Source: Escherichia phage MirsaeidiM_Esher4
Length of the DNA stretch: 44,409 bases
Sequence record: PQ579973.1
Reading direction: 5' to 3' (one strand)
The number at the start of each line of letters is the position of its first letter. Within the stretch, counting starts at the first letter, position 1. This document shows, piece after piece, positions 1-10,314 of this stretch. The position numbers and the translations under genes are program-made. Under the pieces are notes generated by a model that made no database searches, was not told the DNA's origin, and worked only from the letters and a program-made list of their open reading frames with translations.

Positions 1-55
1 AAAAACAAAAGGCCTGCGTACAGAGATGTAACTGTGTGGCATGGGTGGCAAAGGT
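1..55. repeat. Terminal direct repeat; identical to 44355..44409 (circular wrap or terminal redundancy)
   Basis: Bases 1-55 match bases 44355-44409 exactly on direct comparison; a reading frame continues across the junction. Confidence 0.9.
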
Positions 56-438
56 TTATGTCATTCCGTAAATGGTGGCTTTGTAATTATGTAGAGGGAT
101 GGGAACTAGATAAGGACATATTCTCCGGTATTAATAAGATATACAGTCCTACCACTTGCATTTTTATCCCGCAATGGTTGAATGTTTTTCTACAGGAAAA
201 GAAAAATAGTGGTTCACCCACCGGTGTTTTTTATGAAGAATCAAGAGGTAAATTTAAAGCATCAGTGAATTATGAGAAAAAAACTATTAATATAGGACGT
301 TTTGAAACTAAGGAAGAAGCGCTAGATGCCTACATTGCCGAAAAGATAAGGATAGCGGAATCAAGGAGATGTGAGATAGAGGCGATAAGAGAAGGTATGT
401 TCGACCGCGTTGTCGCCTTGATAAAAGAGGGGCGTTAG
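1..438 (+). CDS. AP2-domain protein, putative homing-endonuclease-like; C-terminal part of the gene that begins at 44142
   Basis: Frame is open from position 1 in phase with ATG 44142; AP2-like segment GVFYEESRGKFKASVNYEKKTINIGRFETKEEALDAYIAEK; no clear HNH motif seen; AT-richer than neighbours. Confidence 0.6.
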   Translation, partial: KNKRPAYRDVTVWHGWQRFMSFRKWWLCNYVEGWELDKDIFSGINKIYSPTTCIFIPQWLNVFLQEKKNSGSPTGVFYEESRGKFKASVNYEKKTINIGRFETKEEALDAYIAEKIRIAESRRCEIEAIREGMFDRVVALIKEGR

Positions 439-2491: not shown

Positions 2492-2809
2492 CTATTCATC
2501 CTCGTTACGGCCTTCGAACAATGCGTCAAGGCCCATGATTAAATCCACCTCCAATAGCGTGAACGGTTGCTTGTGTAGTTCAGCATATGCTGTCAGGTGA
2601 TGGTATTGAAGCATCTCCCTCGGTATTAGTACGTTATTGCGACTTACAAACTTCAATGCGTAGTATTTGTCCATGATTCGCATCATATCAGCCGGGCATT
2701 CTGGAGGGTCTTCTTCCGGCTCTGGCGGGACTGGTAATCCCATCGCCGTCAAAGCCGCTTTGTGACCGTCCGCGATGGAGTCGAACTCCCGGCGCTTCTG
2801 ACGTATCAC
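2492..2809 (-). CDS. Putative tail assembly chaperone frameshift extension (GT-like)
   Basis: ORF in -1 frame relative to upstream chaperone ORF, open upstream across its stop, immediately before the tape measure gene. No slippery heptamer identified. Confidence 0.35.
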   Translation of the reverse strand: MIRQKRREFDSIADGHKAALTAMGLPVPPEPEEDPPECPADMMRIMDKYYALKFVSRNNVLIPREMLQYHHLTAYAELHKQPFTLLEVDLIMGLDALFEGRNEDE

Positions 2810-2841
2810 CCAGCGATACCGCGCATATTCGTAGAGCGCCT

Positions 2842-3258
2842 CTACTTTACCGACAGCGCTTTGCGGCTCTCTGCGTGATGCTGGGCCACTGCACCACCTA
2901 AGCCTTTGTATTCCTTGAGTAGTTTAACAAGCGCCTTCTTAGTGAACTTCTCGTCGAAGGACCAGCCTATCACTACAACGGCGGCAAGCGCATCATTCAG
3001 CTTCGCCAGTTCACTGTTCAACTCAGTGTTATATCTAGCCCAGTCGCCTTTCTCGCGGCACTCAGCGTCAAGCGGCTTCAGGTTGTCCAGGATGTCGCGA
3101 TAAGCAGAGATGAAGTCTTTAGCAGCTGCGATGGAGTCGTCGCAATCTGGCCCCATGACCTGTAGCCATTCGCCGGAATCGCTGCCGTCTGGCAACAGAA
3201 TCGGCATCTTGGTTCCTGCTGCGTGTTTGGACGCAAAGTAGAAGTCTGACAGTTTCAT
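2842..3258 (-). CDS. Tail assembly chaperone (G-like)
   Basis: 138-aa acidic protein directly upstream of tape measure gene; ATG 3258 with AAGGA RBS; assignment by position. Confidence 0.55.
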   Translation of the reverse strand: MKLSDFYFASKHAAGTKMPILLPDGSDSGEWLQVMGPDCDDSIAAAKDFISAYRDILDNLKPLDAECREKGDWARYNTELNSELAKLNDALAAVVVIGWSFDEKFTKKALVKLLKEYKGLGGAVAQHHAESRKALSVK

Positions 3259-3366
3259 TCTTTAATCCTTTGGTTAAGAGGTTGTTGGTTTGGCTTAAAT
3301 GCACCAGGCGGTAACCATCCGCTTTTCGTGCGCGACACTAGGTGCAAAATTATTCTAACACACTAC

Positions 3367-3399
3367 TTGCGCACCCAAATATAATAGGGTACTATTCAC
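3367..3399 (+). promoter_or_regulatory. Sigma70-like promoter (TTGCGC-N17-TACTAT) with overlapping operator ATAATAGGGTACTATTCAC
   Basis: Hexamers with 17-nt spacer upstream of ORF 3438; operator sequence recurs at 23525, 24825 and 28355-28420. Confidence 0.5.
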
Positions 3400-3437
3400 T
3401 TACACCAACAATGTTATCTCAAATAAGGAATTAACAA

Positions 3438-3764
3438 ATGCGTACATTAATCTTAGCTTTAGGTTTCATATCTTTTACTGCGGTAGGTTCCACTTGTGAG
3501 CAGATTTATTCTGAAACCCCATTAATAACTGCGGGTTTAATAGAAAGCGCCCCTGTAGCCGCGCAAAAAATGTTTAAAAATGCGGTTATTAAAGAATGTG
3601 AGGCCGCGTATTCAGCAGGAGCAGCAGGGGTTAGCTTCGACCTTGTAACAGGCCTTGTCATGAGTTCTGTGGACATGAAATCACCAGGCTACAGCAGCGC
3701 ATTGGTGGCTACTCGCTTACAAATCGTCTCTCTAGCTTGGGCGGCGGGAGTGGAAAGTAAATAG
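3438..3764 (+). CDS. Small secreted protein of unknown function
   Basis: N-terminal signal-peptide-like segment MRTLILALGFISFTAVGSTC; two Cys in mature part; AT-rich codon usage; own operator-controlled promoter; opposite strand to surrounding tail genes. Confidence 0.6.
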   Translation: MRTLILALGFISFTAVGSTCEQIYSETPLITAGLIESAPVAAQKMFKNAVIKECEAAYSAGAAGVSFDLVTGLVMSSVDMKSPGYSSALVATRLQIVSLAWAAGVESK

Positions 3765-3808
3765 CTATTGTAGTTAAATAAGACAAATCCTAAACACGAG
3801 GAATAAGC

Positions 3809-4939
3809 ATGGCCAGGAAGAAAATAACCGACGAACAGTTACAGGAAGAATTGAACGCCGGTATGAAGAATATCGACATCGCCCGTAAATACGGCATCTC
3901 CGACCGCGTTATTCGTATCCGTAAAGCGAAGCTGGCTAAGAAAGGTGTAGGCCACGGGCGTGACGTTAGTTACCTTGTACCGGACGGCTACAAGATTAAA
4001 GGAACGTCATCACTGGTGGATGAGTTTGGCAACACCAAGTTGCAATGGGTTAAGACCGACACCGATGCCGAACGTCAGGTTGAATTGATGAAAGCCGTAA
4101 TCGAAGGCATGAAGTCGGAGATTACACCAGTTGCACCTGTTAAAGCCGTTCGCGCCAAACGAGACGACAAGCTACTCAACCTTTACACTGTGTCTGATTT
4201 CCATCTCGGTATGCTGGCCTGGGCTGACGAGAGCGGCGACGACTGGGACATGAAGATTGCGGAAGACCTGTTCTCCCGCTGGTTCGACGCAGCGTTCCAG
4301 AAAGCACCGGATGCCGGAACAGGAGTTATTAATCTGCTGGGCGACCTTGCGCATTTCGATAGTCTGGACGCCGTTACACCTGCCAGTGGTCATGTTCTTG
4401 ACGCTGACACCCGCTATCAGAAACTTGTACGCTACATGATTCGTATGGTCCGCCGTGTCATTGATATGGCTCTCGTTAAACATAAAAATGTTCGCTTGCT
4501 TATCGTGCAAGGTAACCACGACGAAAGCGGAATGATTTGGTTAGCTGAGATGTTTAGTACGCTGTACGACAATGAGCCGCGTGTGTTCGTCGATACGTCG
4601 CCGGATGTTTACAAGATGGTGCAACACGGCAAAACGACGCTGTTCTTCCATCATGGGCATAAAGCACGATTCGACGCTATCGAACCGGTTATGATCGCCA
4701 AGTTCCGCAAAGCGTTCGGCGAGAGTGTTTACAGCTACGCCCACGTGGGTCACCTGCACCACCAAAAGATTATAGAAAGCCGTAACATGATTGTTGAGCA
4801 ACACCGCACTCTCGCGGCTAAAGATGCATATGCCTCCCGCGGTGGGTGGATGTCGGGCCGCAGTGCAAACGTAATTACTTATAGCGCCGAATATGGCGAG
4901 GTCGCACGTTTAACTATTTCACCGGAGATGCTTGGATGA
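3809..4939 (+). CDS. HTH-domain calcineurin-like metallophosphoesterase (possible nuclease or phosphatase)
   Basis: N-terminal HTH-like region IDIARKYGISDRVIRIRKAKL; metallophosphoesterase motifs VSDFH, LLGDLAH, VQGNHDE, FFHHGH, VGHLHH. Confidence 0.75.
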   Translation: MARKKITDEQLQEELNAGMKNIDIARKYGISDRVIRIRKAKLAKKGVGHGRDVSYLVPDGYKIKGTSSLVDEFGNTKLQWVKTDTDAERQVELMKAVIEGMKSEITPVAPVKAVRAKRDDKLLNLYTVSDFHLGMLAWADESGDDWDMKIAEDLFSRWFDAAFQKAPDAGTGVINLLGDLAHFDSLDAVTPASGHVLDADTRYQKLVRYMIRMVRRVIDMALVKHKNVRLLIVQGNHDESGMIWLAEMFSTLYDNEPRVFVDTSPDVYKMVQHGKTTLFFHHGHKARFDAIEPVMIAKFRKAFGESVYSYAHVGHLHHQKIIESRNMIVEQHRTLAAKDAYASRGGWMSGRSANVITYSAEYGEVARLTISPEMLG

Positions 4940-5421
4940 AAGATATTGTGATTTTCGATTTAGACGGGACATTGGCAGATGGTACTCATCGTTTACACCT
5001 GCTGCCGAAAGATAACTACGGCGAAACCTGGGCGTGGAAACCATTTAACATGGCGTGCAAAGACGATGCACCCATTAAAGATAACATCGAACTGTGTAAC
5101 GCCCTTAATCGTCGCTATGCCGTTATTATCTTAACAGGCCGTAGTGATGACGCGGAAAAAGAAACCAGAATGTGGTTGCAGCGCCACCGCGTCGAATTTT
5201 ATCAGTTAATCATGCGCAAAAAACACGACAACAGAAAAGACATCGTAATTAAAGAAGAGGTGTTGCGTGCTATTGGGCCGGAGAGAATCTTGTGTGCATT
5301 CGACGACTCTCCAGCGGTAATAAAGCATTTCCGCGAACTCGGCATAACCACTCACGCAGTTACTGAATACGACTGTAACGGGAACTCTACACACTTAAAA
5401 CCACATGGGAGTGATAAATAA
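4936..5421 (+). CDS. HAD-superfamily phosphatase (nucleotidase or polynucleotide 3'-phosphatase-like)
   Basis: HAD motif I FDLDGTL near N-terminus, later ILTGR and FDDS segments; start overlaps upstream stop (ATGA). Confidence 0.7.
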   Translation: MKDIVIFDLDGTLADGTHRLHLLPKDNYGETWAWKPFNMACKDDAPIKDNIELCNALNRRYAVIILTGRSDDAEKETRMWLQRHRVEFYQLIMRKKHDNRKDIVIKEEVLRAIGPERILCAFDDSPAVIKHFRELGITTHAVTEYDCNGNSTHLKPHGSDK

Positions 5422-5975
5422 TGGCTAAGGTAATTATTCTTAATGGTCCTGCGGGCTGCGGGAAAGACACACTTGCTAGGGCGCTGGTAGAAATGGGCTT
5501 TGCGAAGGGTGTCGCCAGTTTCAAGAATCCGATGTTCAATATTGCTATGGCCGCGTTAGGCCGGGATGCTTACCGCGAGTTTCTCGACGGCTACGACGAC
5601 CGGGCGCGGAAAGAAAAGCCAGAGGGTTTCCTTAACGGGTTGTCTCGGCGTCAGTTCATGATTGCCATTTCCGAGCAATTCATTAAACCGGTATTCGGTG
5701 ATGATTATTTCGGTAAGTATCTTGCCGGAAACTTGCCCGACGGCGACGAAGTTTTTGTGGTGTCTGATGGCGGGTTCGCCAGCGAAGTAACCCCTATCGT
5801 TGCCGCGGGGCATGATGTGAGAATCGTCCGCTTGCACAGAGACGGCCATACGTTTGAAGGGGACAGCCGCGGTTACCTGTACGATATTGATGGTGTAAAA
5901 GATTATGACACCTACATCATACCGGGTTACGTTAAATCGAACGCTATAGGCATTGCTTTAAGATTAGGTTTGTAA
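5421..5975 (+). CDS. P-loop kinase, dNMP kinase-like
   Basis: Walker A GPAGCGKDT with GKDT signature and overall resemblance to phage deoxynucleoside monophosphate kinases; start overlaps upstream stop. Confidence 0.6.
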   Translation: MAKVIILNGPAGCGKDTLARALVEMGFAKGVASFKNPMFNIAMAALGRDAYREFLDGYDDRARKEKPEGFLNGLSRRQFMIAISEQFIKPVFGDDYFGKYLAGNLPDGDEVFVVSDGGFASEVTPIVAAGHDVRIVRLHRDGHTFEGDSRGYLYDIDGVKDYDTYIIPGYVKSNAIGIALRLGL

Positions 5976-5977
5976 GA

Positions 5978-6003
5978 AAAAGGCCCCAAACGGGGCCTTA
6001 GTT
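5978..6003. terminator. Bidirectional intrinsic terminator hairpin
   Basis: GGCCCC-AAAC-GGGGCC stem-loop with T/A-rich runs on both sides, between convergent genes. Confidence 0.6.
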
Positions 6004-7170
6004 TTATGCGTATGTGATGCGCTGAATAACAATAGACGACTGGTACTGGTTGCCGGTAGCCTGGCCTTCAATAGACTGAGTGATTGACTCAGGTCCTCCA
6101 ATCTCAGGTGTAACCGCCGTAAGTTCTGCACGTTTCAAACTGAAAGACATAGCCCCGTTTACCCCAGCCAGAATAGAGTTAATCTCCACCTGCTGCTCGT
6201 TGATAAACTTCTGAATCATCGCCATGTCGTACAGCTTACCGGAGATGGAGAAGGTGTTAGCTGCTCGGCTACGCTCCACAAACGCTACGTTAGTGTTGCC
6301 GAGTTCGAACTGTGCGGACGCGCTGTTGTCGTTGGTGATAGTAAGGCTATCACAACGCAACGGCGTAGAGCCATCGAACACGGAAACGTCAACCGAAGAG
6401 AACGGCTCATCACCAAAAGTAACAGATGAGAAGTTGGAACCGGTCGGCGGCGTAGTGAGAATCTCCTGACTGCGACCGATGAATGGGAAGCTGCCAGTTA
6501 CCATCGCGTTAACAGCCTGTTCGATGGTAAAACCAGAAACTTCCACGCCTTTGGTTAACGTGTACGCGTCAGTACCGCCGCACTGGCCTTTGTACCAGGT
6601 AAGGATAGAGAACGTCTTACACGTGTTACCGGTTTCCAGCGTGTCGCCGGTTTTAGCCTTACTAGTTTTTGTCTCGGTGGTCAGGGTGTGTTGGATGCCC
6701 GCACCGGTAACAACCGTAGCCGTTACTGCAGTAACAATAAATGGTTTTGCGTTATCGCCTGTTAAATCGGTAAATGCAATCAGGTCGCCTACCCCAACTC
6801 CGTCAGTGATAAAACTGCCGGTAGCGCGTGTGAACGTCTTGCCCGCGGGCAAGACGGTAATCGACAGACTGGACAGGGAAACACCGGATTGCCACGTAGA
6901 GCCTAAAGCACCAGCCAGCCAGTCATCCTGGCTTTTCGAGCTAAGCTCGATCGCGTATTCACCGCTAACCTGTTTGTTACCGGTGCGGATGGATGTAGTT
7001 TCACGGCTGCCGTCCAGTTCGTTGGAGGTCAGCGTGTCGCGGGTAATGGCAGGAACACCGCCAGTGTTACGCAACGGTGACCAGACCGGGTTAGTCGGTG
7101 TTACGCCCGGGGTGACTTCCGCCACATAGAATTGCGCGGTATTCGCGCCCTTAAAAGGAGTTGTAGCCAT
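6004..7170 (-). CDS. Major tail protein
   Basis: Thr/Ser/Gly-rich beta-type protein upstream of chaperone and tape measure genes; start moved to ATG 7170 (AAGAGG RBS). Confidence 0.7.
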   Translation of the reverse strand: MATTPFKGANTAQFYVAEVTPGVTPTNPVWSPLRNTGGVPAITRDTLTSNELDGSRETTSIRTGNKQVSGEYAIELSSKSQDDWLAGALGSTWQSGVSLSSLSITVLPAGKTFTRATGSFITDGVGVGDLIAFTDLTGDNAKPFIVTAVTATVVTGAGIQHTLTTETKTSKAKTGDTLETGNTCKTFSILTWYKGQCGGTDAYTLTKGVEVSGFTIEQAVNAMVTGSFPFIGRSQEILTTPPTGSNFSSVTFGDEPFSSVDVSVFDGSTPLRCDSLTITNDNSASAQFELGNTNVAFVERSRAANTFSISGKLYDMAMIQKFINEQQVEINSILAGVNGAMSFSLKRAELTAVTPEIGGPESITQSIEGQATGNQYQSSIVIQRITYA

Positions 7171-7172
7171 AT

Positions 7173-7589
7173 TCACAGCCTCTTGGTGAATGCAATAAAG
7201 TTAATTGACAATGGTCGTTTGGCCCATCCGTTTTCTACAATCAGCGGCCCCAGGCTAACCGATTGAACCTCGGCGCAGATGTCGTTACGTGAAAATGACT
7301 TACCTGCTTTAAACGCCGTGTTAAGTAAGTCTGCCATTTTATTGATTGGCGCGCTACCTTTCACCGATGCGTAGTTAATGTCTACCTGATAAACACCGGC
7401 GCGTTGTTCCGTGAAGAACAAATCCGCCTGTTCCGTATCCGCAAGTAACATGTAACTTGCCAGATATGGCGTATCGGTTGACGTCGGCGCGTCGATGTTT
7501 TCAAGCGCGACCTTGATGCCGTTGGCGGTTCCGAAGGCTACCAGCGGCACATCAAACGCTTTTGTTAAGTCCTCAAAGTAGCCCATCAT
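7173..7589 (-). CDS. Tail completion or terminator-like protein
   Basis: Small protein directly upstream of major tail gene, ATGA-coupled to neighbours; assignment by position. Confidence 0.45.
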   Translation of the reverse strand: MMGYFEDLTKAFDVPLVAFGTANGIKVALENIDAPTSTDTPYLASYMLLADTEQADLFFTEQRAGVYQVDINYASVKGSAPINKMADLLNTAFKAGKSFSRNDICAEVQSVSLGPLIVENGWAKRPLSINFIAFTKRL

Positions 7590-9564: not shown

Positions 9565-10314
9565 TCACCCCTTCTTACAGTTATCAAAGTGCCACCTCTT
9601 TAGAAGAGATAGCGCCCCTTCGGTTCCGCAATGTGGGCATACCCCGCGCGGGCGTTTCATTCCAGTAAGTTTATCTGAAATTTTCTTGACAGTCTCGCCC
9701 TTTAACGTATGGCCCTTCTTAAAACTTCCGGAGTTAGGTTTTCTATTAACCTTGCCAACGATTCTATTTGGGTCCGCGAACTGGCATTTCTTGCAGCAAT
9801 ATTTACGCGCTCGTGATTTAAAACGGTAGGGGATCGGCTGGTCGCATGTTACACATCGTTGTGGGTTTGCCATGTAATGCTCTATTCTGGCTTTTCTACT
9901 TGCAGTTTCCCCAGTAGCAATTCCTTTATTCCACGCCTTTTGCCCTAGATGTGCTTGTCTGAGATTTTCTATACGTTTATCAGAAAATTTAACACCAGTA
10001 TTCAACCTGGACATCTCTATAGCCCAAGCCTCTTTCGCCAACTTAAAGGAATGTGAGTTAACTTTTGACCTTTGATTGTTTTTAGGGTTAATACACATAA
10101 CCCTCCAGGCGAAAGCTAGTTCTTTAGTCCCGTGTATCTTATAGAGAAGCCAATGCGCAATAAAATGCTGTCTAGCGCTCAAAGATACAATATTGTCAAA
10201 AGTATCTCCACCACCCATGCATTTCGGGACTATGTGATGTTTTTCGGTATACCCACTAAACGGATTGATTTTTGCGTTCGATATTAACTGTTCATAGATT
10301 TTGGCGTAGTTCAT
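9565..10314 (-). CDS. HNH homing endonuclease
   Basis: HNH motif EKHHIVPKCMGGGDTFDNIVSLSARQHFIAH; basic Cys-rich C-terminal repeats; AT-rich; inserted between connector and capsid-decoration genes; 270-bp non-coding gap follows. Confidence 0.85.
   Translation of the reverse strand: MNYAKIYEQLISNAKINPFSGYTEKHHIVPKCMGGGDTFDNIVSLSARQHFIAHWLLYKIHGTKELAFAWRVMCINPKNNQRSKVNSHSFKLAKEAWAIEMSRLNTGVKFSDKRIENLRQAHLGQKAWNKGIATGETASRKARIEHYMANPQRCVTCDQPIPYRFKSRARKYCCKKCQFADPNRIVGKVNRKPNSGSFKKGHTLKGETVKKISDKLTGMKRPRGVCPHCGTEGALSLLKRWHFDNCKKG

What the first reader, a model, noticed from the sequence alone, without database searches (positions are those of the whole stretch)
3300..6003. Opposite-strand accessory island inside the tail morphogenesis cluster: candidate host-takeover or nucleotide-pool module
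Between the major tail gene and the tail chaperone genes (both minus strand) sits a plus-strand unit with its own operator-controlled promoter and a bidirectional terminator. It encodes a secreted small protein, an HTH-fused calcineurin-like metallophosphoesterase (all five motifs present), a HAD phosphatase (FDLDGTL) and a dNMP-kinase-like P-loop protein, the last three translationally coupled. The combination would fit a nuclease-like enzyme, a nucleotidase and a dNMP kinase acting in host DNA or nucleotide turnover, or in countering nucleotide-based defences. The placement inside a structural operon and the repressor control suggest a horizontally acquired module. Functions are motif-based inference only.
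Basis: partly seen in the sequence, partly recalled or inferred. Interest (0 to 1): 0.65.

Follow-up and report, generated by a model that had tools for sequence, protein, structure and literature searches.

The report
Known phage nuclease-phosphatase-kinase gene cluster
This is the already-annotated, opposite-strand DNA-metabolism gene cluster of Kagunavirus phages: a core nuclease-like enzyme flanked by swappable cargo genes, ordinary in kind though none of its enzymes has been tested.

Summary
The window is a complete Kagunavirus (Guernseyvirinae) genome. The region is 97-99% identical to published phages (K1G, K1H, fKuEco01) that carry the same annotations.

**Confirmed:**
- Four plus-strand ORFs between the tail-tube and tail-chaperone genes.
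- The ATGA and TAATG overlaps between the last three genes.
- The bidirectional terminator.
- The enzyme families:
  - an HTH-fused metallophosphoesterase with all five motifs invariant and a Mre11/SbcD/PolD-DP1-like fold;
  - a PNKP-type HAD phosphatase;
  - a P-loop kinase whose best fold match is T4 gp1 dNMP kinase.

**Not supported:**
- The "operator". Those inverted repeats largely belong to a covarying int-alpA-like RNA motif on the opposite strand, upstream of the tail chaperone gene.
- A single acquired island.
  - The metallophosphoesterase is a core gene (the T1 gp16 family, found in about 2,050 phage records).
  - Both flanking positions are swappable.
  - HAD+kinase replaces a 76-aa ORF exactly between the metallophosphoesterase stop codon and the terminator.
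  - HAD→kinase is itself a conserved pair: 73 of 80 kinase loci have it.

**Most likely role (inferred):** processing DNA, probably host DNA, into dNDPs for phage replication. The rivals are split-PNKP end healing and removal of alarm nucleotides. Interest is low to moderate.

The parts
3300..3346 (-). int-alpA-like structured RNA motif: a 6-bp closing stem, a 4-bp hairpin, GAAAA, then a 5-bp hairpin. It lies 42-88 nt upstream of the tail assembly chaperone start codon.
   Evidence: Rfam RF02996 scores 28.2 bits in the window, below the 35.8 gathering score, and 35.8 bits in the relative Bas72. On 14 Guernseyvirinae sequences 96.9% of cells are paired, four pairs show compensatory changes, and the G-U wobbles fit only the minus strand. 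RNAalifold predicts the same structure independently.
3357..3395 (+). Candidate host-RNA-polymerase promoter(s) of the plus-strand unit: TTGCGC-17-TACTAT, overlapping AACACA-17-TATAAT.
   Evidence: Read from the sequence. The TTGC and TAyTAT blocks are invariant across Kagunavirus and Jerseyvirus SETP7. Both candidates fall below the threshold of the consensus scan. No transcription start data are available.
3438..3764 (+). Cargo slot 1: a small, probably periplasmic protein (108 aa) with a signal-peptide-like N-terminus and two invariant cysteines. Function unknown.
   Evidence: phrog_14165, unknown function, 2e-24. No Pfam, NCBIfam or PADLOC match. Homologues are at most 47% identical and lie at the same site in 98 Kagunavirus/Jerseyvirus records. 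Other relatives carry an Imm_superinfect gene here instead. Local GC is 0.40-0.43, against about 0.5 in the flanks.
3809..4939 (+). Core gene: an N-terminal HTH (residues ~8-44), a beta-hairpin/helix linker, and a binuclear metallophosphoesterase domain (~119-376). Predicted Mn-dependent phosphodiesterase or nuclease of the T1 gp16 / phrog_704 family.
4936..5421 (+). Cargo slot 2, gene 1: a stand-alone PNKP-type HAD (DxDxT) phosphatase.
   Evidence: Pfam HAD_PNKP PF25109 scores 72.9 bits against a 27.6 cut-off. The best solved relatives are Pnkp1 4xrp and the T4 Pnkp phosphatase domain. It is 28% identical to a T4-type PseT phosphatase domain over the whole domain, E 5e-12, with FDxDGT, (S/T)GR, RKDxxxKEE and DD conserved.
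5421..5975 (+). Cargo slot 2, gene 2: a P-loop (GxxxxGKD) kinase with a T4 gp1-like nucleoside-monophosphate-kinase fold.
5980..5999 (.). Bidirectional intrinsic terminator shared by the plus-strand unit and the convergent tail tube gene.
   Evidence: An 8-bp stem with 6 G-C pairs and T-rich tails on both strands. It is conserved in relatives whatever cargo precedes it.

Best explanation
The region is the standard opposite-strand DNA-metabolism transcription unit of Guernseyvirinae phages. It is wedged between the tail tube gene and the tail chaperone genes and points the same way as the replication genes.

**Architecture (shown)**
- One core gene, the HTH-fused binuclear metallophosphoesterase of the T1 gp16 family.
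- An exchangeable cargo position on each side of it.
- In this phage the upstream cargo is a small exported protein.
- The downstream cargo is a two-gene cassette: a PNKP-type HAD phosphatase followed by a gp1-like kinase. It is translationally coupled to the metallophosphoesterase gene.

**Proposed mechanism (inferred)**
1. The unit is transcribed by host RNA polymerase, independently of the late tail operon.
2. The metallophosphoesterase cuts or trims DNA, most probably the host chromosome.
3. The HAD enzyme removes 3'-phosphates from DNA ends or from 3'-mononucleotides, so that exonucleases can finish the job.
4. The kinase converts the released dNMPs to dNDPs for phage DNA synthesis.

Gene identities, architecture and linkage are shown. 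Substrates, timing and the host-DNA target are inferred.
For: **Identity of the phage and region**
- The region is 97-99% identical to annotated Kagunavirus genomes.

**Core status of the metallophosphoesterase**
- It occupies the same site in Jerseyvirus SETP7, which lacks the HAD and kinase genes.
- It is present alone in Dhillonvirus and in Rtp/T1.
- It occurs in 2,050 phage records and 4,626 50%-identity clusters.

**Active site and fold**
- The active-site residues are invariant.
- The closest folds are nucleases and exonuclease subunits: Mre11, SbcD and PolD DP1.

**Cassette**
- The HAD passes the Pfam HAD_PNKP threshold and aligns with the T4-type phosphatase domain, with the motif residues FDxDGT, (S/T)GR, RKDxxxKEE and DD conserved.
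- The kinase's best fold match is T4 dNMP kinase, and it aligns further with gp1 than with Pnkp.
- Homology with relatives breaks exactly at the metallophosphoesterase stop codon (4939) and resumes at 5972, just before the terminator. Relatives carry a 76-aa ORF in between.

**Linkage**
- 73 of 80 kinase loci have the HAD gene upstream on the same strand. 27 of 80 have the full order metallophosphoesterase, HAD, kinase.
- That order recurs in Klebsiella Webervirus.
- It also recurs in Erwinia Autographiviridae phage S2, among exonuclease, endonuclease VII and ligase genes.

**Context and precedents**
- In other phages the kinase sits beside nucleotide or DNA-metabolism genes, such as thymidylate synthase in a Vequintavirus.
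- Phage metallophosphoesterases can destroy host DNA: T5 A1 (bioRxiv 10.64898/2026.04.02.716235) and mycobacteriophage gp48 (PMC12287305).
- The plus-strand unit is co-oriented with the replication module at 25.8-37 kb.
Against: - No enzyme of these three families from these phages has been assayed, and no functional paper was found.
- The metallophosphoesterase is not detectably homologous to T5 A1 beyond the GNHD motif or to T4 gp47. The host-DNA-degradation precedents are therefore analogies, not homologues.
- The HTH could indicate a regulatory role instead.
- Most metallophosphoesterase loci (68 of 80) have no HAD or kinase gene nearby, so the three need not form one pathway.
- A fixed phosphatase-kinase pair is the hallmark of end healing rather than of salvage.
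- The kinase does not reach any Pfam family threshold, including DNMK.
- Expression timing is unknown.
Confidence: 0.45

Rival explanations
1. Split PNKP end healing. The HAD phosphatase and the P-loop kinase together act as a two-polypeptide polynucleotide kinase-phosphatase. They convert 3'-phosphate/5'-hydroxyl breaks in DNA or RNA into ligatable 3'-OH/5'-phosphate ends. The metallophosphoesterase acts as the accompanying nuclease or 2',3'-cyclic phosphodiesterase. The purpose would be repair of phage DNA, or of tRNA/mRNA cut by host defence nucleases. Sealing would be done by host ligase.
For: - The HAD belongs to the PNKP phosphatase family.
- HAD then kinase is a near-obligate, same-strand, fixed-order pair (73 of 80 loci). 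From my own knowledge, mammalian PNKP has its phosphatase and kinase domains in this order.
- In Erwinia phage S2 the three genes are followed directly by a DNA ligase gene.
- Bacterial Pnkp uses a metallophosphoesterase domain as its 2',3'-phosphoesterase (PMC3675462, PMC2190708; abstracts).
- P. putida MPE nuclease leaves a mixture of 3'-PO4 and 3'-OH ends and sits in a DNA repair operon (PMC7826289).
Against: - The kinase's best fold match is the small-molecule kinase T4 gp1, with 169 aligned residues. T4 Pnkp, mammalian PNKP, CthPnkp and Clp1 are absent from the top 60.
- hhalign matches a T4-type Pnkp only over the Walker A segment.
- No RNA or DNA ligase is annotated in the near-identical genome.
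- From my own knowledge, E. coli RtcB would seal unhealed 3'-P or cyclic-phosphate ends, so healing would not help that route.
- The cassette is absent from most Guernseyvirinae.
Confidence: 0.25
2. Counter-defence by editing the nucleotide pool. The phosphatase, with or without the kinase, removes signal or alarm nucleotides. Examples are modified dNMPs such as m6dAMP released by host-genome degradation, or cyclic or 3'-phosphorylated signalling nucleotides. Defence systems that sense them would then not fire. The metallophosphoesterase might likewise hydrolyse cyclic-nucleotide messengers.
For: - The Metis defence system senses m6dAMP from phage-induced genome degradation. Its own HAD phosphatase, MisB, keeps m6dAMP low (bioRxiv 10.1101/2025.11.05.686725). 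A phage HAD phosphatase doing the same would blunt it.
- The cassette is present in some members of a genus and absent from others, and is exchanged between phage families, as accessory anti-defence genes often are.
- Cargo slot 1 also holds conflict-type genes, such as superinfection immunity.
Against: - There is no sequence link to any known anti-defence enzyme, and no PADLOC match.
- The HAD is of the PNKP type (PF25109), not the MisB type (PF13419).
- The kinase has no obvious role in this scheme.
- T5 encodes a dNMP phosphatase yet is still sensitive to Metis.
- In other phages the genes sit within DNA-metabolism clusters.
Confidence: 0.1
3. The three enzymes do not form one pathway. The HTH-metallophosphoesterase is a replication or recombination nuclease, or a DNA-binding regulator acting on phage DNA. 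Examples would be end or hairpin processing, proofreading like PolD DP1, or autoregulation through its HTH. The neighbouring cargo genes are unrelated passengers that use a permissive insertion site.
For: - 68 of 80 metallophosphoesterase loci lack HAD and kinase genes.
- The downstream slot holds unrelated genes in relatives: a 76-aa ORF, and other unassigned ORFs of 66, 157, 203 and 223 aa.
- In T1 the metallophosphoesterase gene (gp16) is distant from the HAD/kinase pair.
- The structural neighbours include DP1 and B-subunits of replicative polymerases.
- The HTH is conserved family-wide.
Against: - The order metallophosphoesterase, HAD, kinase recurs in at least three unrelated phage lineages. 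It is seen in 15 of 68 kinase loci that are not Kagunavirus.
- In the window the three genes are translationally coupled.
- No Rad50/SbcC partner is annotated in the near-identical genome.
Confidence: 0.2

Closest known systems
Annotated clusters of published Kagunavirus phages (K1G, K1H, K1ind1-3, vB_EcoS_fKuEco01, RP180)
   Same: The three enzyme genes have the same order, position, strand and terminator at 90-99% nucleotide identity. They are annotated as metallophosphoesterase or DNA repair exonuclease, polynucleotide kinase/phosphatase, and deoxynucleotide kinase or ATP-binding protein.
   Different: The first gene differs. Many relatives carry an Imm_superinfect gene plus a tiny ORF. The window's 108-aa protein is only 45-47% identical to the version in K1H, Bas72 and M01.
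Coliphage T1 gp16 / Rtp61 and the T1 'pnk' (ST64) + ST62 pair
   Same: Homologous HTH-metallophosphoesterase (about 46% identity to Rtp61). Homologous PNKP-type HAD and P-loop kinase (39% identity), in the order HAD then kinase.
   Different: In T1 the pair lies in the early left-end region, is split by an HNH gene, and is far from gp16. None of these genes lies inside the tail cluster.
T4 polynucleotide kinase-phosphatase (PseT/Pnkp)
   Same: The HAD protein matches the C-terminal 3'-phosphatase domain across its whole length, with the DxDxT, SGR, RKDxxxKEE and DD motifs. A kinase is genetically coupled to it.
   Different: Here the two activities are separate proteins in the reverse order. 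The kinase resembles gp1 rather than the Pnkp kinase domain. No RNA ligase partner is present.
T4 gp1 deoxynucleoside monophosphate kinase (1DEK)
   Different: Only 20% identity. hhalign aligns just the first 72 columns. The window protein has no Pfam DNMK hit. Substrate range is unknown.
Mre11/SbcD nucleases and the PolD DP1 exonuclease subunit
   Different: No significant sequence homology. No Rad50/SbcC partner. A family-specific N-terminal HTH and beta-hairpin module.
Host-DNA-degrading phage metallophosphatases (T5 A1; mycobacteriophage A10ZJ24 gp48)
   Same: These are phage-encoded metallophosphoesterase-superfamily proteins tied to destruction of host DNA. They are a functional precedent for the proposed role.
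   Different: T5 A1 aligns only at the GNHD motif, at 11% probability. Homology to gp48 was not tested.

Membership tests
Calcineurin-like binuclear metallophosphoesterase superfamily (Pfam PF00149 / PF12850) | The five metal-ligand motifs: DxH, GD, GNH(D/E), H, GHxH | tested here: met
   D130/H132, G178-D179, N236-H237 (G235 and D238 nearly invariant), H282, and G314/H315/H317 are invariant in the alignment of 61 sequences; the same residues except G178 are listed as invariant in the 73-sequence alignment.
Calcineurin-like binuclear metallophosphoesterase superfamily (Pfam PF00149 / PF12850) | Score above Pfam's gathering threshold | tested here: not met
   Metallophos_2 scores 22.0 bits against a 27 cut-off. 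Metallophos scores 18.8 against 21.5. This is a divergent family.
Calcineurin-like binuclear metallophosphoesterase superfamily (Pfam PF00149 / PF12850) | Metallophosphoesterase sandwich fold | tested here: met
Calcineurin-like binuclear metallophosphoesterase superfamily (Pfam PF00149 / PF12850) | Metal-dependent phosphoester hydrolysis | not testable with these tools
   Requires a biochemical assay.
Mre11/SbcD nuclease family | Significant sequence homology to Mre11, SbcD or T4 gp47 | tested here: not met
   A profile search of PDB sequences gives E of at least 0.29 for SbcD/Mre11. hhalign to T4 gp47 gives 5.8% probability.
Mre11/SbcD nuclease family | A partner Rad50/SbcC ATPase encoded alongside | tested here: not met
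   No such gene is annotated in the near-identical complete genome.
Phage HTH-metallophosphoesterase family (PHROG 704; T1 gp16 / Rtp61) | Full-length profile match and shared architecture | tested here: met
   phrog_704 at 4e-167 over residues 4-375. Full-length tblastn matches to Rtp61, which is annotated as 'highly similar to gp16 of phage T1'.
PNKP-type HAD phosphatase (Pfam PF25109 HAD_PNKP) | Score above the gathering threshold | tested here: met
   72.9 bits against a 27.6 cut-off, E 3.9e-20, covering profile positions 2-140 of 143.
PNKP-type HAD phosphatase (Pfam PF25109 HAD_PNKP) | DxDxT nucleophile motif plus the (S/T)GR, RKDxxxK and DD motifs of the T4 Pnkp phosphatase | tested here: met
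   FDLDGT, LTGR, RKDIVIKEE and FDD align with FDVDGT, VSGR, RKDDVVKEE and IDD of a T4-type PseT. The assignment of these motifs to catalytic residues of T4 Pnkp is from my own knowledge.
PNKP-type HAD phosphatase (Pfam PF25109 HAD_PNKP) | 3'-phosphatase activity on polynucleotide ends | not testable with these tools
   Requires an assay on 3'-phosphorylated oligonucleotides against 3'- and 5'-mononucleotides.
Bifunctional polynucleotide kinase-phosphatase (T4 Pnkp type) | Kinase and phosphatase fused in one polypeptide | tested here: not met
   They are separate ORFs, 4936-5421 and 5421-5975, overlapping by one base.
Bifunctional polynucleotide kinase-phosphatase (T4 Pnkp type) | Kinase module homologous to the Pnkp 5'-kinase domain | tested here: not met
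T4 gp1-type dNMP kinase (Pfam PF21448 DNMK) | Sequence-profile membership | tested here: not met
   The window protein has no DNMK hit. One of seven relatives hits at E 0.16. phrog_139, named dNMP kinase, matches at 1e-45 but is a broad cluster.
T4 gp1-type dNMP kinase (Pfam PF21448 DNMK) | gp1-like fold, including the NMP-binding insert | tested here: met
T4 gp1-type dNMP kinase (Pfam PF21448 DNMK) | Phosphorylation of dNMPs | not testable with these tools
   Requires an enzyme assay.
int-alpA RNA motif (Rfam RF02996) | Score at or above the gathering threshold | tested here: not met
   The window scores 28.2 bits against 35.8. The relative Bas72 reaches 35.8 and K1H 31.6.
int-alpA RNA motif (Rfam RF02996) | Closing stem enclosing two hairpins, supported by covariation | tested here: met
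   96.9% of cells are paired, four pairs have changes on both sides, and no shuffle in 500 reaches the covariation score. RNAalifold gives the same structure.
Superinfection immunity protein (Imm_superinfect) | The first gene of the unit belongs to this family | tested here: not met
   The window's 108-aa protein has no Pfam hit. Relatives carry Imm at this position instead.

The most novel reading that the evidence does not exclude
The PNKP-type HAD phosphatase and gp1-like kinase form a mobile, two-gene functional unit that has not been described as such. The order HAD then kinase is conserved in about 90% of sampled kinase loci, across Drexlerviridae, Guernseyvirinae and Autographiviridae. 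The unit would act in one of two ways:
- as a split polynucleotide kinase-phosphatase that heals 3'-P/5'-OH breaks made by the adjacent metallophosphoesterase or by host defence nucleases; or
- as a nucleotide-pool editor that destroys alarm or modified dNMPs (for example m6dAMP, sensed by Metis) while channelling normal dNMPs into phage DNA.

Separately, the int-alpA-like RNA in the leader of the tail chaperone/tape-measure operon could be a cis-regulator of late tail-gene expression.
Probability: 0.12. Interest if true: 0.65.

Novelty: already known. Interest (0 to 1): 0.25.

Why it matters
As a discovery it matters little. The genes, their order and their family-level annotations are already in GenBank for dozens of near-identical phages.

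**What the re-analysis adds:**
- It separates a core gene (a T1 gp16-type HTH-metallophosphoesterase, one of the most widespread uncharacterised enzymes of small virulent coliphages) from two hot spots where cargo is exchanged.
- It shows that the HAD and kinase genes travel as a fixed pair.
- It reassigns the supposed operator to a structured RNA on the tail-operon strand.

If the enzymes were assayed, the result would say how T1-like and Kagunavirus phages handle host DNA and nucleotide pools. These phages are used in therapy and in synthetic-phage work. It would also bear on the newly described defences that sense host-genome degradation. Natural cassette-plus and cassette-minus phages offer a ready-made experiment.

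Tried and rejected
- **Homology to T5 A1, the host-DNA-degrading metallophosphatase.** hhalign found only the GNHD segment, at 11% probability. Rejected as a homologue and kept as an analogy.
- **Homology to T4 gp47 (SbcD-like).** 5.8% probability. Rejected.
- **Sequence and profile searches of the metallophosphoesterase and kinase against PDB sequences.**
  - For the metallophosphoesterase, there was nothing significant beyond weak HTH matches.
  - For the kinase, there was only one borderline match (adenylate kinase 9, E 0.0077) and P-loop matches.
  - Fold search was needed instead.
- **PADLOC defence-protein models.** No hit for any of the four proteins.
- **Pfam and NCBIfam for the 108-aa protein,** including lenient thresholds on six homologues. 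Nothing was found. The 'DUF3718' label on one GenBank homologue could not be reproduced.
- **Operator hypothesis.** The promoter block occurs only once in the window. The 11-mer repeat is at chance frequency.
- **Consensus promoter scan.** It found nothing in the intergenic region.
- **Other copies of the int-alpA-like RNA in the window.** None.
- **Single-sequence folding of the leader.** Not significant, z = -0.56. Only the comparative evidence supports the RNA.
- **Literature searches for functional work** on this module in Kagunavirus, Jerseyvirus or Drexlerviridae. Only genome descriptions were returned.
- **First attempt at search for related loci** with the 61-sequence alignment. It failed for lack of a conserved stretch. 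It was repeated with 12 sequences.

Full report
**What the window is.**
- The 2.7-kb region matches 198 phage records by megablast. The best are Escherichia phages vB_EcoS-UTI89UKE1, fKuEco01, K1G, K1H and K1ind1-3, at 95-99% identity. All belong to Kagunavirus, Guernseyvirinae.
- The ORF map shows the window is a whole, circularly permuted genome of this type. Structural genes lie on the minus strand. The replication module lies on the plus strand at about 25.8-37 kb.

**Checking the observation.**
- They lie between the minus-strand tail tube gene (6004-7176, Phage_tube_2) and the tail assembly chaperone genes (2842-3258, 2492-2809).
- The last three genes are coupled by an ATGA overlap and a TAATG overlap, each with a Shine-Dalgarno sequence upstream.
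- The hairpin at 5980-5999 scores as an intrinsic terminator on both strands.
- The promoter is less certain.
  - The consensus scan found nothing between 3259 and 3437.
  - Reading the sequence gives TTGCGC-17-TACTAT (3367-3395), overlapping a perfect TATAAT at 3380-3385 that has a poor -35.
  - The TTGC and TAyTAT blocks are invariant from Kagunavirus to Jerseyvirus SETP7, so a host-type promoter is plausible but unproven.

**The proteins: metallophosphoesterase (376 aa).**
- It matches PHROG 704 end to end (4e-167). Its Pfam Metallophos matches fall below threshold.
- In alignments of 61 and 73 homologues (34-54% identical, apart from two near-identical sequences in the larger set) the canonical metal ligands are invariant: D130, H132, G178-D179, N236-H237, H282, G314, H315, H317.
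- An AlphaFold model built on the diverse alignment is good (pLDDT 81.8). It shows a three-helix N-terminal HTH, a beta-hairpin plus helix, and then the phosphoesterase domain.
- It is not detectably homologous to T5 A1 or to T4 gp47.

**The proteins: HAD phosphatase (161 aa).**
- It passes the Pfam HAD_PNKP threshold comfortably: 72.9 bits against 27.6.
- It aligns over its whole length with the phosphatase domain of a T4-type PseT. The FDxDGT, (S/T)GR, RKDxxxKEE and DD motifs are kept.

**The proteins: P-loop kinase (184 aa).**
- It has no Pfam family above threshold.
- Its model is excellent (pLDDT 94).
- Next come an adenylate-kinase relative and human phosphomevalonate kinase. T4 Pnkp, mammalian PNKP, CthPnkp and Clp1 are not in the top 60.
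- Profile comparison aligns 72 columns with gp1 but only the Walker A segment with Pnkp.

**The proteins: small first protein (108 aa).**
- It has a signal-peptide-like N-terminus and two invariant cysteines.
- It matches only an unannotated PHROG.
- It is just 45-47% identical to its nearest phage homologues.

**Architecture across relatives.** The metallophosphoesterase is the fixed element.
- It sits at the same site in Jerseyvirus SETP7, where it is flanked by a superinfection-immunity gene and a 76-aa ORF, with no HAD or kinase gene.
- It stands alone in Dhillonvirus and in Rtp, where it is annotated as highly similar to T1 gp16.
- It occurs in 2,050 phage records and 4,626 50%-identity clusters.

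Both neighbouring positions are variable.
- Upstream, relatives carry either Imm_superinfect plus a tiny ORF, or the 108-aa protein.
- Downstream, Kagunavirus contigs whose metallophosphoesterase is 96-98% identical to the window's lack HAD and kinase genes. They carry a 76-aa ORF, sometimes with further ORFs.
- The swap is precise. Homology to such relatives runs to the metallophosphoesterase stop codon (4939) and resumes at 5972, just before the shared terminator.
- By identity bands, about 52-56 phage records hold a HAD or kinase at least 80% identical, against 291 for the metallophosphoesterase.

**Linkage of the enzymes.**
- Of 80 viral contigs found with the metallophosphoesterase, only 12 have a HAD gene within 5 kb.
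- Of 80 contigs found with the kinase, 73 have the PNKP-type HAD upstream on the same strand. Inserts of up to about 2 kb sometimes separate them, as with T1's HNH gene.
- 27 of those 80 have the complete order metallophosphoesterase, HAD, kinase. Fifteen of the 27 are not Kagunavirus.
- The three-gene order recurs in Klebsiella Webervirus, just before the lysis cassette.
- It recurs in Erwinia Autographiviridae phage S2, between exonuclease/endonuclease VII and DNA ligase.
- So HAD then kinase is a genuine two-gene unit that often, but not necessarily, docks behind the metallophosphoesterase gene.

**The 'operator'.**
- The conserved block at 3300-3346 gave a sub-threshold Rfam hit to the int-alpA RNA on the minus strand (28.2 bits). 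The same element reaches the gathering score in phage Bas72 (35.8 bits).
- On 14 Guernseyvirinae sequences I tested a closing stem, a 4-bp hairpin, GAAAA and a 5-bp hairpin.
  - 96.9% of cells pair.
  - Four pairs show compensatory changes.
  - No shuffle in 500 reaches the covariation score.
  - The G-U wobbles would be A-C mismatches on the plus strand.
- RNAalifold finds the same structure unaided.
- The element lies 42-88 nt upstream of the chaperone start codon. It is most simply a leader or regulatory RNA of the minus-strand chaperone/tape-measure operon, not an operator of the plus-strand promoter.
- One arm of the 11-nt inverted repeat found by the repeat tool (3323-3333 with 3369-3379) lies inside this RNA. 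The other arm overlaps the -35 candidate, so a DNA-level role cannot be fully excluded.
- The repeat motifs are not enriched elsewhere in the genome.

**How it most likely works.**
- *Shown:* gene identities, intact catalytic motifs, coupling, the terminator, the core-plus-cargo architecture, and the HAD/kinase linkage.
- *Inferred:* a host-polymerase-transcribed unit, co-oriented with the replication genes, in which three steps follow.
  1. The metallophosphoesterase cleaves or trims DNA.
  2. The PNKP-type phosphatase removes 3'-phosphates.
  3. The gp1-like kinase feeds dNMPs towards dNTPs.
- *Precedents:* phage metallophosphatases that destroy host DNA, namely T5 A1 and mycobacteriophage gp48. 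P. putida MPE leaves mixed 3'-PO4 and 3'-OH ends.
- I put this at about 0.45.
- *Main rival (0.25):* the HAD/kinase pair is a split PNKP for end healing. The near-obligate pairing and the ligase neighbour in S2 favour it. The kinase's fold neighbours and the absence of a ligase here count against it.
- *Counter-defence reading (0.1):* removal of alarm nucleotides such as the m6dAMP sensed by Metis. It is attractive but has no direct support.
- *Unlinked-genes reading (0.2):* the metallophosphoesterase may be functionally independent of its neighbours.

**Comparison with what is known, and verdict.**
- Every gene here is already deposited and annotated in near-identical genomes.
- The enzyme superfamilies are textbook ones.
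- T4 also places its dNMP kinase gene among structural genes.
- No paper describing the function of this module turned up. The biology is unstudied rather than strange.
- I rate the finding as already known in content, with low-to-moderate interest.
- The useful residue is threefold: the corrected architecture, the conserved HAD/kinase pair, and the int-alpA-like RNA in the tail-operon leader.

Noticed in passing
window 3300-3346, minus strand (relatives: L014 425-489, L013 425-489): A conserved, covarying structured RNA resembling the Rfam int-alpA motif sits in the leader of the tail assembly chaperone/tape-measure operon of Kagunavirus and Jerseyvirus phages. Only one copy is present in the window, and its function is unknown.
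   Followed up: yes
window 4940-5971, compared with L022/L025 6132-6354: There is an exact cassette replacement between the metallophosphoesterase stop codon and the shared terminator. The window has HAD+kinase where relatives have a 76-aa ORF (MTSKYNRTMTNTHG...). That ORF is absent from the window and has no assigned function.
   Followed up: partly
window 3438-3764: The 108-aa exported protein is a strongly divergent allele: 45-47% identical to the K1H, Bas72 and M01 versions, which are nearly identical to one another, while the flanking genes are 97-99% identical. Its exact sequence forms a one-member cluster seen on 5 contigs. Local GC is 0.40-0.43. This suggests rapid evolution or replacement of a surface or periplasm-acting gene.
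   Followed up: partly
window 34-438 (+) and 9565-10314 (-): Two low-GC ORFs interrupt the structural gene clusters. One has an AP2-type DNA-binding domain (24.2 bits, below cut-off). The other has an HNH motif (18.4 bits, below cut-off). They are probably homing endonucleases.
   Followed up: partly
window 2492-3258, minus strand: The two tail assembly chaperone ORFs (2842-3258 and 2492-2809) correspond to the product annotated as a programmed frameshift (joined CDS) in fKuEco01 and K1H. The slippery site was not examined here.
   Followed up: no
window 3323-3333 and 3369-3379: An 11-nt inverted repeat links hairpin 1 of the RNA motif with the candidate -35 region. The window (GTGCGC/GCGCAC) and K1H (GTGTGC/GCACAC) differ by a compensatory change. 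Single-sequence folding of the minus strand prefers this alternative pairing, so a possible alternative structure remains unexplained.
   Followed up: partly
L008 (Erwinia phage vB_EamP-S2) 716-4033: A T7-like podovirus carries the same metallophosphoesterase, HAD and kinase genes in the same order, immediately followed by its DNA ligase gene and preceded by 5'-3' exonuclease and endonuclease VII genes.
   Followed up: partly
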